Shown here in pieces: positions 57,101 to 64,000 of a DNA stretch of 64,000 nucleotides. The number at the start of each line of letters is the position of its first letter. Position 1 is the stretch's first letter. Origin of the DNA: Glycera tridactyla (taxonomy: Eukaryota); contig OZ286471.1 in NCBI GenBank assembly GCA_965644265.1, forward strand, positions 46,438,001 to 46,502,000. Direction: 5' to 3'. Made by a program: the position numbers.

Positions 57101-60100
57101 TTAGAGCAGCTGACAAGGTAGCCATGCTAGTACATGCTTTATTGTGATTATCCAACTTCAACATTTATTCAATCATCGTGTCGCATGTTGCATAATGATC
57201 CCCGGCCTATGGAGTCAGTGAATGCGCATTGTTTACCTTAGCCACGATCACGTGTGTTACCACAAAAATGTTAATGATAATACCATCATTGAAAATTTTG
57301 TTATCGGTGATGAAGACGACGACAATGAGATCGACGACGATGACGATGCAGAAGACGAAGATTACGGTGACAGTGATGGTGAAGATGACGGTGGCGTGGT
57401 GGAGGCGGTGACGGTGGCGGTAGCGGTGCTGGTGGCGGTGACGGTGACGGTGGTGATGATGAGGGTGATGGCGCGGGCGGTGGTGGTGGTGACGGTGACT
57501 GTGATGGTGATGGTGATAATGATGACGACGATGGTGATTCAATAAGGATTCAATGAATTTCTCTGTTGGAGATGAGAAAAATTACCTCATTTCCATCTCA
57601 GCATAGAACTAAGACACGTTAGAATGATACTATATACAAAATACACACATAATTATAGTCCATGACATAAGGGAATAGACAAAATAAGACCATAGTAACA
57701 AGTGCAGCAGGTAAATTGCGTGGATCTTTTATGCGAACATAGAATTTAGACCAAAACACATATGCGAGATAGCTGGTTAGGTGCGGGACTGCATGCGCCG
57801 AACGCCCGGTCACAATAAGCAACACACAAATAATATCCATGCTGCAGAATGCCAGTTTTGTGTGCATACCGGTGGGATGTCATTTTTTTGCAGCACGGAA
57901 CCCTCCCTGGTGAAATGACGATAGTATGGCATCCTTACCCCACCCGGGTCACCCATCTAATACGGATGTCTACCATCTACTTTGGAAGTCTTCCTCATTC
58001 TTACTTGTATCTTGATCTTCTGTTTGCAGAATGGAGCGAATAACTACGTGTTCGCAATGCGTCGTTAGATGGCTAGCTGTCTTTGGCCTTCTACTAGCCT
58101 TCTCCCACTCAGGCAATTCAGGTAAACTATCACCTTTGTTATTTCTCGCAATGATCCTCCAAACTTTATGTTATAATCCAGCGAGTCCTACAATGTGAAT
58201 CACCAACGGTTGGAACGCCTTTGTTAATTCATTTCTGTCAATTCACCTCTGTCAAACCTCCAAATTTGACGTATTCGGCAATGTGAGTTACCGACGACTT
58301 TGAATGGGCACTCAGGTCTTGGTTCTTCCATCCTGGTCGTTGTGTCGGTTATACAAGTGTAAGTGGACGTGAAAAGAAGAAGCATGTGTGTATGAGTGTC
58401 AACTTCCAATCAGTAACATTATTGAGCTCACTACAGGCCGGTTTGTCCGTTTCATCAAGGTTGGTAGGGGTATATAGACTGCAGTGAAGGAGCTCCGGTA
58501 CAAAGTTTCTACAATGCCTGTATATTTCACAATAGAGTCCGATATTGTGGTGTCCTCCAAAAGCAAATGTTCTCTGGTATTCCACCTCAGACGAAGTGAA
58601 ATACCGACAACGTGTGCCCACTGGCAGGGGCTATCTCTGGAGCCGATCTTCATGGTTTGTTCGTTCGTTTGTTTGGGTTTAACGTCTATTCAACTACCTT
58701 GGGTTATATCAGACTGAAACACTGAAAATGCTGAAGCAAAGAGGCACCACTGCCGGGGGCCGTCCCTACTCTTTGCAGAAGACAGCAGTGATTCTTTTAC
58801 GTGCATACAGGAAAAGACTCTTATACACACGGCCGGCCTTTGATATCCTATACGACATGCACTGGTTCCAAACTTTATGGATGTTAAACCACTCCATTCC
58901 AATTCCTCTAGTTTCGCATCAAGCTCGTAAAATGGCGCACGCTGCGCAGTCAGGGGACAAGGTTAATTTGATGTTTCCAGTATCCTACTCAGACATGATT
59001 TGTATCGAATCAGCTTTCTCATTTCACAACTATTGTCCACTCCCCACCCTCTAGTCCCCTGCTTTCCTGTAGACGACATGTTTCAGAAGTATGATCCACA
59101 TCTTTATTTGAAAGACACTGCATTGCGATTTGTTCAATCGACCCACATTCCTGGATGAAAGTTGGCGTGTGTATAGACCAGAAAATACGTTTATACATGA
59201 TTTATCTTCAGTTTGCTAGCAATATGCATGAGACTCGTGTAGAATTGGTTATATTTTACTTGGTGGTCCCGTCATGAGGTCTCATGAGGCGCAAATGGCT
59301 GATGTATTAGGGAACTATTTAGGATAAGTAGTGGCATCATTAGAAAGTACGTTGTTTGTTGGTCATCGACCAAAACTGAGGTGATTTGCAATTTGTATGG
59401 CTCCAATTGCGCGAAAAGTCAAAACGCAGTTGTAGTACAATAGATTTGTAGAAAGACCATGACATGAGAGGATTTTTACCTCGTCTCAACGAAGATGAGG
59501 GGAGGTATTGCGGTCACTCCGGCGTCGGCATCAGCATCGGCGTCGGCATAGACGTCCTCATCTGCGTTAAGGTCAGCTCAGCAACTAGAGGGCCTAGCTC
59601 CATATAATTAGGCAGACATATACTTCAGTACATTTACTGATGAATCCAGCGATCATCAAGGTGTCATCTCAATGTTCTTCTTGATTAATTTTGGTTTGAA
59701 ACTTGTGTTTTCTGAAATGATGGGACTCTGTCATTGGGGGCAATGTTGAAGTCATGTCAAAGTCACATTGCTCAGCAACTAGAGTGCCCAGCTCCATGAA
59801 ATATGGCATGCATATACTTCAGTACATCTACTGATGAATCCATCAAGGTAGCATCCCAGTGTTCTGCTTGATTAATTCTGGGATGAAAATTAGGTTTTTT
59901 GAAGTGATGGGAGCTATTTCTGATGATCCAATTTATTCATGTTCAGTTTGCAGTTGATTCTCCACATGTGTCTTTATCCCCTGTGATTGTATATTGCCCA
60001 TGAAAGACTGATATGTGCGTGATAGGTGATTTTGGGGCAGAAAATCCCTTTTTTGAAATGAATGAACATTTCTGGTGACCCAGCCACCCCAAACTTGATA

Positions 60101-61723: not shown

Positions 61724-64000
61724 ATAGTGGTAGTAGTACTAACTGTGCTTNNNNNNNNNNNNNNNNNNNNNNNNNNNNNNNNNNNNNNNNNNNNNNNNNN
61801 NNNNNNNNNNNNNNNNNNNNNNNNNNNNNNNNNNNNNNNNNNNNNNNNNNNNNNNNNNNNNNNNNNNNNNNNNNNNNNNNNNNNNNNNNNNNNNNNNNNN
61901 NNNNNNNNNNNNNNNNNNNNNNNNNNNNNNNNNNNNNNNNNNNNNNNNNNNNNNNNNNNAGAGTGGGAGGAAGTGGTGGTAGTAGTAGTAGTAGTAGTTG
62001 TAGGAGTAGTTGTAGTAGTAGGTGTAGTCACTAGTGACAGTAGTGATAGAGGAAGTAGCAGCAGCAGGAAAGGTTAACAAATTATTGATTTTATTATCAT
62101 CATTATTAATGTTATTATCATTATTGGTTGTTGTAATAGTGGTTGGAGTGGGGACGAGGGTGGTGATGGTGATGGTGTTGCTGTTGGTGATGTCGGTGGT
62201 GTTGGTAGTGGTAGTAGCAGCAATTGCGTGTTGAGGAATCAGGTGTATTGTGAATTGACACTATGCGTATTGTGTTCATTTTATAGAAGCTGACGATGAA
62301 TGTGACTTCCCATTTGAGTACGGTGGCCAACAGTTCGCCAGCTGCATCACTACACCCGATCGTAACGAGCCTTGGTGTCGAACCTTCGGAGGACAAATCA
62401 AGACATGCAGAAGTGAGTTGTTTTCATCACACTCTTGTTTGTTGGCGGACTATAGATCCTATTTGGGGCGTAGTTTGATAATCATCCTACGACATTCCCA
62501 TACTGCTAGTGCTAAAATAGACCTATAAGCTAGTTTTGAGCGATTTAGCTTCACATTTTGGAGATGACGGGCGAAAGCAAGGCGTAGCCCATTTTGCAAC
62601 CTGTATGGGTCCTAGGGTGGGTATATTAGCACTAGCGACATGGGCGTGTCGTAGGATAGATATCAATCTACGCCCCTAACGGGGCTAGGTTTAGTCATTC
62701 GGCTGACCAGGATTCGGGAACTCACTATCCTGCGTAGTGAATAGCATTGCACCCTTTATCATAGATGGAGAAGCTGCTTTGTCTGAAAAGAGCGGGAAAA
62801 CTCATATCACTGCCATTGGCTTCAAATAGTCCTCATATTTCCAAATTTCACGATTATTCACACCCACGGCCCTTTGAATCCCATATTATATATAACTAAT
62901 CCACATGAATCCTATTCATATACCAGCCATTTGCATTTCAGGCCTTATTTTAGGAAAGAATTTTGAATGGCTGATTTTGAAATGTCGGCAAGTGAAATTT
63001 GCCAAATTCCTAGTTATTTAGTTATTCAGACGAATCTGCGTGATAAGGCCTGGACAAGGAATAGAAGAGGAATGGAAAGAAGGAGAAGGGTCAATGTGGC
63101 TACCTATGATTGCGGCTGGCTGCGGCAGCGGTGTCGGCGGTTTTCACCCACCCTTCGACATCGTGGGAACTCCTCCGAAAACTTCTTCATGACAAATCTT
63201 CTCTTTTTTGCTTGCAGTTTTTGCGGATATGCAGGACGGGGGATGGCGCCTATGCCAGTTCCCGTTCAGCTATCACGAATCGACCTACTCCGGCTGCACG
63301 GATGAGTACACCACCGCCGGAAAACCCTGGTGTCTCACCGACAATACCGGCACCTGGGGCTACTGTGACCCATTCCGTGAGTAAAGCATTAATACATCAT
63401 GAGTTCTCTCGGATGAATCAATAAATGGTTCTAGTTTGAATTTGAATTTGAATTTGAACTTTATCTTTCCACTTTCCAGGGGCGAGGGGGGGGGGGGGCA
63501 GTAATACATTGCCCCCTCTTTGAGTACAAACAATGAAAACAAGCATACATGGCAAGACAAGTCATACAAAACATACAATGAGACAAGGTCAAGTAAGCAA
63601 GATGATAAGATGATAAGCGACTGAAAATTTAAACCATGATGCTCTATCAAATTCCAAATGGACTGTCAGAATGCGCCTTGATGGACGCCGAGTGTATCAC
63701 AATTAAGTTATTCCCTGTGCAAAATATTTCATGGTTCTTCTCTTAAATAAGCTTAGACTGTCCATTGAAATGATGATATGAATCAGTGCAAAGCGACCTG
63801 TGTCAAAATTGACCCGAGAGGCGTAGTCCAGACTATTACCACCTGGTATCGGTATTGTAGGAGCCAGGGGTATGGGTTTCTCATGTTGGGAAAGAGGACA
63901 GAATAAGTGACCCGTGATGAAATTTAGATGAAGAAATGTCAGATAATTGTCATATATCTCTCGATTAGAATAGCAGCAAGAGTCTTGGTCCATGTTTGCC

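What the first reader, a model, noticed from the sequence alone, without database searches (positions are those of the whole stretch)
57711..63376. Secreted invertebrate protein built from tandem FN2 exon modules
Seen: three GT-AG exons join in frame into a 125-aa N-terminus: signal peptide, FN2, FN2. All junctions are phase 1, and no catalytic or other domain precedes the FN2 modules. Established: FN2 modules bind collagen/gelatin (MMP-2/9, fibronectin, mannose-receptor family) or choline phospholipids (BSP/ELSPBP1 seminal proteins), are best known from vertebrates, and 1-1 symmetric exons are the classic exon-shuffling class. Inference: a possibly lineage-specific FN2-array protein acting in matrix binding, gamete interaction or defence. 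The C-terminus lies outside the window.
[Added by the scan's program, not by the reader: the finding's places include an assembly gap (unread letters, written N; its length is only estimated) at 61751 to 61959. Whether the letters on both sides are continuous or in frame is not known: test that first.]
Basis: partly seen in the sequence, partly recalled or inferred. Interest (0 to 1): 0.68.

Follow-up and report, generated by a model that had tools for sequence, protein, structure and literature searches.

The report
Start of a secreted FN2-repeat gene
The end of this window holds the first exons of a gene for a secreted protein that begins with two fibronectin type II modules, a real but ordinary member of a protein class already known to be common outside vertebrates.

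Summary
On the + strand, 58031-58121 (ATG plus a signal-like peptide), 62287-62412 and 63218-63376 have GT-AG borders and are all phase 1. The last two each pass Pfam's fn2 cut-off (31.7 and 37.3 bits) and model as FN2 folds. They are the only 2 of 299 stop-free frames scanned in the window with a credible Pfam match.

The assembly gap lies inside intron 1, in a (GTA)n minisatellite that continues on both flanks in the same orientation. It therefore cannot shift the frame. The link between the signal exon (left of the gap) and the FN2 exons (right) still rests on the scaffold.

- a well-flanked 72-nt phase-1/1 candidate exon at 61321-61392;
- an in-frame TAA (63382-63384) plus AATAAA (63420-63425), so a complete 2-module protein is possible.

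No orthologue was found. However, 335 FN2 proteins match, mostly FN2-only arrays, and the salmon louse alone has 192 FNII copies in 74 genes. This is a new member of a known kind and of low interest. Organism and "invertebrate" are untested. The joined protein was never built or searched.

The parts
58031..58121 (+). Exon 1: start codon and a 30-codon signal-like peptide, ending in phase 1
   Evidence: ATG with A at -3 and G at +4; hydrophobic core at residues 14-24 (KD 2.8); donor CAG|gtaaac; the only 1 of 156 upstream ATG..GT phase-1 candidates with core >=2.0 and donor >=7/9. No Pfam family. No similarity to the N-termini of the 150 hits.
58122..62286 (+). Intron 1 (about 4.2 kb as assembled). 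It holds repeats, the assembly gap and one candidate exon.
   Evidence: No Pfam match in any of its stop-free frames of 38 aa or more.
61321..61392 (+). Candidate extra (cassette?) exon: 72 nt, phase 1/1, open in the required frame, with 3 Cys and an N-x-T site
   Evidence: acceptor tgttttttttgttgcag|, donor AAG|gtaggt; one of only 5 such strictly flanked phase-1/1 open segments in 127 kb (both strands), so about 0.17 is expected by chance in this intron. No Pfam family and no match in the hits. Use unproven.
61751..61959 (.). Assembly gap (N), inside intron 1
   Evidence: 72-nt copies at 61592-61663 and 61679-61750 are 99% alike. The left flank stops at the end of the second copy. The right flank resumes with the counterpart of the spacer that follows the first copy, in the same orientation, with (GTA)n on both sides. 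The gap was not filled or looked up.
62287..62412 (+). Exon 2: FN2 module 1 (divergent, with a short last loop and no aromatic pair before Cys4)
   Evidence: Pfam fn2 31.7 bits, profile 1-29/42. PDB sequence hits to MMP-9, PDC-109, MMP-2 and fibronectin. AF2 pLDDT 89.3. Foldseek top hits are FXII FnII, MMP-2 col-2 and PDC-109, TMq 0.70-0.73. C3-C4 spacing is 9.
62413..63217 (+). Intron 2 (805 nt), GT-AG
   Evidence: No Pfam match in its frames.
63218..63376 (+). Exon 3: short linker plus FN2 module 2 (complete, with all consensus aromatics)
   Evidence: Pfam fn2 37.3 bits, profile 1-42/42. PDB sequence hits headed by MMP-9 at 5e-14. AF2 pLDDT 75.9, over 80 in the module itself. Foldseek probability 1.00 to MMP-2 col-2, fibronectin, MMP-9 and FXII.
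63377..63425 (+). Ambiguous 3' signals: consensus donor GTGAGT (63377-63382), an in-frame TAA (63382-63384) if that donor is not used, and AATAAA (63420-63425)
   Evidence: On the + strand GTGAGT occurs 0.38 per kb and AATAAA 0.33 per kb.

Best explanation
This is the 5' part of a real eukaryotic gene for a secreted, disulphide-rich protein. A first exon supplies the start codon and a cleavable signal peptide. Two symmetric phase-1 exons then each encode one fibronectin type II (FN2) module.

The gene belongs to the large and already documented population of FN2-repeat proteins found outside vertebrates. It is not a vertebrate-type MMP, mannose-receptor or fibronectin orthologue.

Module 2 keeps the whole FN2 consensus: four Cys and the F-P-F, Y, W-C and W-G-Y aromatics. 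It most likely works as FN2 modules do elsewhere, offering a shallow aromatic pocket that binds an extended ligand such as denatured or collagen-like chains. Module 1 keeps the fold and both disulphides but has lost the aromatic pair before the last Cys, so it probably binds weakly or binds something else.

The transcript most likely splices on from 63376 to further exons beyond the window, either more FN2 modules or another extracellular domain.

Shown here: the exons, phases, domain identity and fold. Inferred: secretion, the exon 1 join, the ligand and the downstream continuation.
For: Domain identity and fold:
- fn2 scores are above the curated cut-off for both exon peptides.
- They are the only credible Pfam matches among 299 frames scanned.
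- PDB sequence matches are to FN2 modules only.
- The AF2 models (pLDDT 89.3 and 75.9) have nearest solved folds that are FN2 modules.
- C, F-P-F, C, W-C and C are invariant in an alignment with 14 small FN2 proteins.

Gene structure:
- The GT-AG borders sit just outside each module, and all are phase 1.
- Exon 1 is the unique good signal-like phase-1 first exon in 10.3 kb.
- The gap flanks carry the same repeat in the same orientation.

Known class:
- 335 relatives at E<=1e-3.
- 108 of the 124 scanned hits up to 720 aa are fn2-only, and at least 15 of the 26 longer hits are mosaics.
- The literature describes invertebrate FN2 families.
Against: - No transcript, EST or annotated protein supports any junction.
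- The window's own protein was not found in either protein collection.
- Exon 1 lies on the other side of an assembly gap from the FN2 exons, and no signal-peptide predictor was run.
- The signal exon and the candidate extra exon have no relatives among the 150 hits.
- Module 1 matches only 29 of 42 profile positions.
- An in-frame stop plus AATAAA just after exon 3 fits a complete small protein instead.
- Ligand binding is inferred from other FN2 modules. The functions of invertebrate FN2-only proteins are themselves unknown.
Confidence: 0.7

Rival explanations
1. The gene is complete within the window. Exon 3 is the last exon and reads through its 'donor' to a TAA at 63382-63384, with polyadenylation after the AATAAA at 63420-63425. 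The product is a precursor of about 127 aa (about 151 aa with the candidate exon): signal peptide plus two FN2 modules. That is the size and layout of the mammalian seminal BSP proteins and of small two-module proteins in the databases. The short form could also be an alternative isoform of a longer gene.
For: - The stop comes five residues after the last Cys, and AATAAA follows 36 nt later.
- Small proteins with two fn2 stretches exist among the hits, e.g. P0050 (119 aa), P0122 (146 aa, hydrophobic N-terminus) and P0148 (134 aa).
- 22 of the 149 hits with regex-detected modules have exactly two.
Against: - GTGAGT falls exactly at a phase-1 position after the module, as at exon 2. By chance that is about 6 positions x 3.8e-4 (frequency).
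- A donor in this phase is followed by a T-initial codon, which is a stop about 1 time in 5, so the stop alone is weak evidence (inference).
- A 3' UTR of about 55 nt would be unusually short.
- My rough likelihood estimate favours continuation about 10:1 (inference, not a tool result).
Confidence: 0.13
2. The two FN2 exons are real, but exon 1 is not their first exon. Either the scaffold is misjoined at the gap, or the true upstream exon(s) are hidden in the gap or lie elsewhere. The N-terminal architecture ('nothing precedes the FN2 modules') would then be unknown.
For: - The gap separates exon 1 from the FN2 exons.
- Exon 1 has no homologue.
- A second well-flanked phase-1/1 segment at 61321-61392 shows the intron is not empty of exon-like sequence.
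- Low-complexity ATG..GT candidates also exist to the right of the gap at 62109/62166/62172-62229.
Against: - The same compound repeat runs in register and in the same orientation across the gap.
- Exon 1 is the only 1 of 156 candidates with both a hydrophobic core and a good donor, and it has the required phase.
- The candidates to the right of the gap are microsatellite translations with a 3/9 donor match.
- No other domain is found anywhere upstream in 58 kb.
Confidence: 0.12
3. This is a decaying or silent gene fragment: an exon-shuffled FN2 pair that is no longer expressed.
For: - No expression evidence of any kind.
- The rest of the window is a repeat-rich region without recognisable genes.
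- Module 1 is degenerate in its last third.
Against: - Both exons are open.
- All eight Cys and the core aromatics of module 2 are intact.
- All six splice sites keep their GT/AG, and the phases agree.
- Both peptides model confidently as FN2.
Confidence: 0.05

Closest known systems
FNII-domain gene family of the salmon louse Lepeophtheirus salmonis (LsFNII1-3 and others)
   Same: A non-vertebrate case with many genes whose proteins carry FN2 modules 'mostly alone': 192 copies in 74 genes. Some are expressed in exocrine tegumental glands, i.e. secreted FN2-only arrays. Source: passages of bioRxiv 10.1101/2021.03.15.435234 and of PMC7201535.
   Different: No orthology is shown, and I could not compare sequences because these proteins were not identifiable in the unnamed hit list. 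The function of the louse proteins is also unknown. The organism of this window is unknown.
Mammalian seminal-plasma BSP proteins (PDC-109/BSP1) and ELSPBP1
   Same: Signal peptide followed only by tandem FN2 modules (2 or 4). PDC-109 is among the PDB sequence and fold matches of both modules. The in-window stop would give a protein of BSP-like size.
   Different: - Only domain-level similarity: E 4.5e-6 and 2e-3, Foldseek identity 33-36%.
- Both window modules have short C3-C4 loops (9 and 10 residues, against 14-15 in 395 of 635 modules).
- Module 1 lacks the aromatic pair before Cys4.
- Choline-phospholipid binding was not tested.
- The gene probably continues downstream.
Gelatinases MMP-2 / MMP-9 (collagen-binding FN2 triplet)
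   Same: These are the best sequence matches of module 2 in the PDB: MMP-9 at 5e-14 and MMP-2 at 7e-11. Same fold. Tandem FN2 modules on phase-1 exons (recalled knowledge).
   Different: In gelatinases the FN2 triplet is inserted into a Peptidase_M10 catalytic domain. Here the modules follow a signal peptide directly, and no M10 sequence occurs in the window.
Planarian FN2 proteins (FN2-bearing VAL/SCP-TAPS proteins; other S. mediterranea FN2 proteins)
   Same: Non-vertebrate secreted proteins with FN2 modules (passages of PMC3435950, and of PMC6211748). One close hit, P0028, combines short-loop FN2 modules with a tail that looks CAP-like to my eye, though Pfam reported only fn2 for it.
   Different: There FN2 is an accessory to a CAP domain. 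No CAP sequence is seen in this window, and what lies downstream is unknown.

Membership tests
Fibronectin type II domain (Pfam PF00040, kringle-like fold) | Profile score above the curated gathering threshold | tested here: met
   31.7 and 37.3 bits against a cut-off of 22.2. Repeated on the whole stop-free frames: 29.9 and 36.7 bits. Module 1 aligns to profile positions 1-29 only.
Fibronectin type II domain (Pfam PF00040, kringle-like fold) | Four Cys in the spacing C-x-FPF-x(9)-C-x(8-11)-WC-x(n)-C, plus the conserved aromatics | tested here: met
   - Both modules fit the pattern.
- C, F, P, F, C, W, C, C are invariant in alignments A1 and A2.
- Module 2 has the W-G-Y before Cys4. Module 1 does not; 42 of 635 modules in the hits also lack both aromatics.
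Fibronectin type II domain (Pfam PF00040, kringle-like fold) | FN2 three-dimensional fold (two short double-stranded sheets, two disulphides) | tested here: met
   AF2 pLDDT 89.3 and 75.9, each with four short strands. The nearest PDB folds are FN2 modules: TMq 0.6-0.79, probability up to 1.00. Foldseek E-values are weak (0.005-0.5) because the domain is small. These are predictions, not solved structures.
BSP / ELSPBP1 family (FN2-only secreted proteins of vertebrates) | The protein consists of a signal peptide, a short N-terminal stretch and only 2 or 4 FN2 modules | tested here: inconclusive
   The N-terminal part fits. Whether the protein ends after module 2 (TAA 63382-63384) or continues from the donor at 63376 cannot be decided without transcripts or the next contig.
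BSP / ELSPBP1 family (FN2-only secreted proteins of vertebrates) | Orthology or close sequence kinship to BSP/ELSPBP1, and choline-phospholipid binding | not testable with these tools
   Only domain-level similarity to PDC-109. Binding needs an assay.
Gelatinases (MMP-2/9) | FN2 modules inserted in a Peptidase_M10 catalytic domain preceded by a propeptide | tested here: not met
   The FN2 exons follow a signal-like exon. No M10 or PG_binding match appears in any of the 299 frames scanned in the window.
Mannose receptor family (MRC1, MRC2/Endo180, PLA2R, DEC-205) | An N-terminal ricin-type Cys-rich domain, then a single FN2, then C-type lectin domains | tested here: not met
   No ricin-type domain lies upstream, and there are two FN2 modules rather than one. 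C-type lectin domains downstream cannot be excluded, because that sequence is outside the window.
Invertebrate FN2-repeat proteins (e.g. the salmon louse FNII family) | A non-vertebrate gene encoding a secreted protein made mostly or only of FN2 modules | tested here: inconclusive
   Secreted layout and tandem FN2 are met. The non-vertebrate origin of the window was not established by any search. The full domain content is unknown.

The most novel reading that the evidence does not exclude
The gene encodes a small secreted protein of two modules, complete in this window. It would belong to a divergent short-loop FN2 subclass. Its first module has lost the aromatic pocket, so the pair could have a ligand specificity unlike either collagen/gelatin or phosphorylcholine. 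That would be a BSP-like architecture arisen independently outside vertebrates.
Probability: 0.08. Interest if true: 0.35.

Novelty: new member of a known kind. Interest (0 to 1): 0.17.

Why it matters
It matters little beyond annotation. The finding adds one more FN2-repeat gene to a class already shown to be widespread and expanded outside vertebrates, so it does not change the picture of FN2 evolution.

Three modest points of value:
- It is a clean example of one-module-per-exon, phase-1/1 organisation in a non-canonical FN2 gene.
- It has short-loop modules (C3-C4 spacing of 10 or less in only 45 of 635 modules of the hits), one of them without the aromatic pair. If expressed, these could help define which residues FN2 ligand binding really needs.
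- The functions of FN2-only proteins in invertebrates are still unknown, so any expressed member is a candidate for binding assays.

Tried and rejected
Searches for the gene's own protein or an orthologue:
- Word-index search with the exon 3 peptide, lengths 'longer': 1 candidate, none significant.
- Full phmmer search of 1.84 billion representatives: no hit above 58% identity. The best single module scored 45 bits (P0143).
- Local phmmer of the signal exon and of the candidate exon against the 150 hits: nothing better than i-E 2.5 and 4.1.

Attempts to name the organism or the hits:
- Alignment query timed out.
- P0143 alone returned only itself, from ENA, on a 542-nt contig and unnamed.
- The ESM Atlas gave only generic fn2 clusters.
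- Rfam: 0 matches. tRNA scan: 0.
- The 300-aa frame at 53646-54545(-) has no Pfam family and no homologue.

Considered and rejected:
- MMP, mannose-receptor, fibronectin and factor XII type architectures: no matching upstream domains.
- Alternative first exons to the right of the gap (62109-62229): microsatellite translation with a poor donor.

Literature searches that returned nothing useful. PMC12549020 had no FN2 passage in its main text, and PMC8373733 yielded only general FN2/kringle background.

Not done:
- The joined (spliced) protein was not built, translated, searched or folded. All searches were exon by exon.
- The gap was not filled or looked up.
- Supplements were closed, so Table S11-1 of the salmon louse genome preprint (invertebrate groups with FNII) was not seen.
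Full report
**What is there.**
On the + strand at the 3' end of the window there are three exon-like segments with canonical borders:
- 58031-58121: 91 nt; ATG with A at -3 and G at +4; an in-frame stop 7 codons upstream; donor CAG|gtaaac.
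- 62287-62412: 126 nt; acceptor ttttatag|; donor GAA|gtgagt.
- 63218-63376: 159 nt; acceptor gcttgcag|; donor TCC|gtgagt.

The lengths are 1, 0 and 0 modulo 3. The two split codons are sense codons. The joined protein was never assembled, translated, searched or folded, so nothing below tests the spliced product as a whole.

**Domain identity.**
- The exon 2 peptide (41 aa) scores 31.7 bits on Pfam fn2, and the exon 3 peptide (52 aa) scores 37.3 bits. The curated cut-off is 22.2.
- Module 2 aligns to the whole profile (1-42). Module 1 aligns to positions 1-29 only.
- Sequence searches of the PDB return only FN2-bearing chains: MMP-9, MMP-2, fibronectin, factor XII and PDC-109. There were 14 distinct sequences for module 2 and 7 for module 1 at E<=0.01.
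- AlphaFold models were built on small alignments with 14 short FN2 proteins from the hit list. Mean pLDDT is 89.3 for module 1 and 75.9 for module 2; in module 2 the first eight linker residues are below 50 and the module itself is above 80.
- For both models the nearest solved folds are FN2 modules, with TMq about 0.6-0.79 and probability up to 1.00. Foldseek E-values stay weak (0.005-0.5) for so small a domain.
- In both alignments C, F-P-F, C, W-C and C are invariant.

**More than chance.**
- A six-frame scan finds the C-x-F-P-F motif only at these two sites in 64 kb.
- I scanned 129 stop-free frames of 38 aa or more on both strands of 53.9-64 kb. Only two pass a Pfam cut-off, both as fn2, and they are these exons. 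One other match (CENP-B_dimeris, 20.6 bits) is below its cut-off.
- The 20 longest ORFs of the window and the 150 longest non-repetitive frames I had not already scanned, out of 376 frames of 50 aa or more that start before 53.9 kb, gave nothing credible. One 'Cementoin' hit with no matched stretch falls in a tandem repeat.
- The FN2 exons are thus the only recognisable coding sequence in the window.

**The assembly gap, tested first.**
The N run 61751-61959 lies inside intron 1 (58122-62286), so its unknown length cannot affect the reading frame. It sits in a compound (GTA)n minisatellite:
- 72-nt copies at 61592-61663 and 61679-61750 are 99% identical.
- The left flank ends exactly at the end of the second copy.
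- The right flank resumes with the counterpart of the spacer that follows the first copy, in the same orientation, and (GTA)n continues.

This is what a collapsed repeat inside one locus looks like and it argues for continuity, but it is not proof. The signal exon is left of the gap and both FN2 exons are right of it, so that one join depends on the scaffold.

**The first exon.**
Its 30-aa peptide has a charged N-region, a hydrophobic core at residues 14-24 (Kyte-Doolittle 10-residue mean 2.8) and a small-residue stretch before the junction. That is a signal-peptide layout, but no predictor was available. Among 156 ATG-to-GT phase-1 candidates in the 10.3 kb upstream of exon 2, it is the only one that combines a core of 2.0 or more with a donor match of 7/9 or better. 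Three more hydrophobic candidates to the right of the gap (62109/62166/62172-62229) are translations of a GTG/GTT microsatellite with a 3/9 donor match.

1. *A candidate extra exon.* 61321-61392 is a 72-nt segment, open in the required frame and phase 1/1, with a strong acceptor (T-run, CAG) and donor (AAG|gtaggt). Under strict criteria only 5 such segments exist in 127 kb of both strands, so about 0.17 is expected by chance in this intron. Under relaxed criteria the count rises to 75, so splice context alone is not decisive. The segment would add 24 residues with three Cys between the signal peptide and module 1. It has no Pfam family and no relative among the hits. It may be a cassette exon, but its use is unproven.
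2. *A possible end within the window.* If the exon 3 donor is not used, the frame ends two codons later (TAA 63382-63384), five residues after the last Cys, and AATAAA follows at 63420-63425. A complete protein of signal peptide plus two FN2 modules is therefore possible, and two-module proteins of 114-160 aa exist among the hits. I still favour continuation:
   - GTGAGT sits exactly at a phase-1 position after the module, as at exon 2. That is about 2e-3 by chance from the window frequency of 0.38 per kb.
   - A donor in this phase is followed by a stop about one time in five.
   - The 3' UTR would be only about 55 nt.

   This weighing is my inference, not a tool result.

**Relatives.**
- The window's own protein is in neither collection. 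The word-index search found nothing. The exhaustive search of 1.84 billion representatives gave 335 proteins at E<=1e-3 (61 at 1e-10, 4 at 1e-30), none above 58% identity.
- The best single-module match is 45 bits for module 2 (P0143) and 32 bits for module 1 (P0048). No orthologue was seen.
- The class is nevertheless large. All 124 listed hits of 720 aa or less carry fn2. In 108 of them it is the only family with a matched stretch, at 2-11 modules each. The other 16 add M10, Sushi, C-type lectin, Kazal, ShK, PAN, Pacifastin, Hint, trypsin+CLIP, EGF and others.
- At least 15 of the 26 longer hits are mosaics with SEA, PAN, Sushi, EGF/LRR, subtilase (with or without CAP), VWA, TSP1, LNR or TIG.
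- A regex census found 635 modules in 149 of the 150 hits. The C3-C4 loop is 14-15 residues in 395 of them and 10 or fewer in 45. The window's modules have 9 and 10.
- Module 1 lacks aromatics at both positions before Cys4, as do 42 of 635.
- The two window modules are 31% identical to each other, so they are not a recent duplication.

**How it most likely works.**
The following is established knowledge of the family, recalled and partly echoed in passages read. FN2 modules are about 40-residue, two-disulphide units. Their conserved aromatic residues form a pocket that binds collagen or gelatin chains (MMP-2/9, fibronectin, mannose receptor) or phosphorylcholine (PDC-109).

Module 2 keeps every consensus aromatic, so it is expected to be binding-competent. 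Module 1 keeps the fold but not the C-terminal aromatic pair, so it may be structural or have another specificity. With a signal peptide and nothing else in front, the protein would be secreted and present its FN2 pair at the N-terminus. The identity of the ligand, and any role in matrix, gametes or defence, is inference only.

**Comparison with what is known.**
The layout is not that of gelatinases (no M10 domain around the modules), the mannose-receptor family (no ricin-type domain, and two FN2 rather than one), fibronectin or factor XII. It resembles the vertebrate BSP/ELSPBP1 proteins in layout only.

The closest described kind is the non-vertebrate FN2-repeat protein:
- Planarian FN2-bearing proteins (passages of PMC3435950, and of PMC6211748). 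[quoted passage not shown]
- Above all the salmon louse. FNII is its most expanded domain: 192 copies in 74 genes, 'mostly alone', sometimes with trypsin. Some members are expressed in exocrine tegumental glands, and their function is unknown (passages of bioRxiv 10.1101/2021.03.15.435234, and of PMC7201535).

That preprint's Supplementary Table S11-1, which lists other invertebrate groups with FNII, could not be read because supplements are closed.

**What stayed open.**
- *Organism.* No call names it. Rfam and tRNA scans were empty. The 300-aa frame at 53646-54545(-) has no family and no homologue. The hit library has no names. 'Invertebrate' is therefore untested, and some short-loop relatives (P0065, P0112) have a composition that need not be metazoan (my impression).
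- *Human origin.* Nothing suggested a human contig. The nearest solved FN2 chains shown by Foldseek, mostly human, are 24-43% identical at domain level.

**Verdict.**
It is a new member of a known kind, of low interest, unless transcripts show the short BSP-like form or an unusual downstream architecture.

Noticed in passing
window 16865-17689: A tandem array with a 45-nt unit (135-nt higher order), about 18 copies at 87-91% matches. It gives long open frames on both strands (338 and 249 aa on -, 190 aa on +). The only Pfam hit is a spurious one with no matched stretch.
   Followed up: partly
window 55211-56168: A satellite with a 74-nt unit, 12.9 copies at 93% matches, about 2 kb upstream of the FN2 gene's start codon.
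   Followed up: no
window 20606-20867: A second assembly gap (262 N), flanked on both sides by a tetranucleotide-type microsatellite that translates as SVCL repeats.
   Followed up: no
window 53646-54545 (-): A 300-aa stop-free frame, the longest non-repetitive one in the window. It has no Pfam family and no homologue among proteins of 165-525 aa. This is unusual for chance, but it remains unexplained.
   Followed up: partly
window 59933-60358: Two direct copies of an element of about 115 nt inside intron 1, visible as a repeated peptide in the minus-strand frame. Probably a small interspersed repeat.
   Followed up: no
window 11132-11473 (-): A 114-aa frame whose start resembles, from memory only, the C-terminal tail of ORF2 of non-LTR retrotransposons of aquatic animals. 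Pfam gave no match, so this is an untested lead to the organism's identity.
   Followed up: no
window 1-57000: Apart from the FN2 exons, no stop-free frame in the window reaches a credible Pfam match (20 + 129 + 150 frames scanned). The region is rich in microsatellites (CA/GT, GTA, His/Asp-coding triplets) and looks gene-poor.
   Followed up: partly
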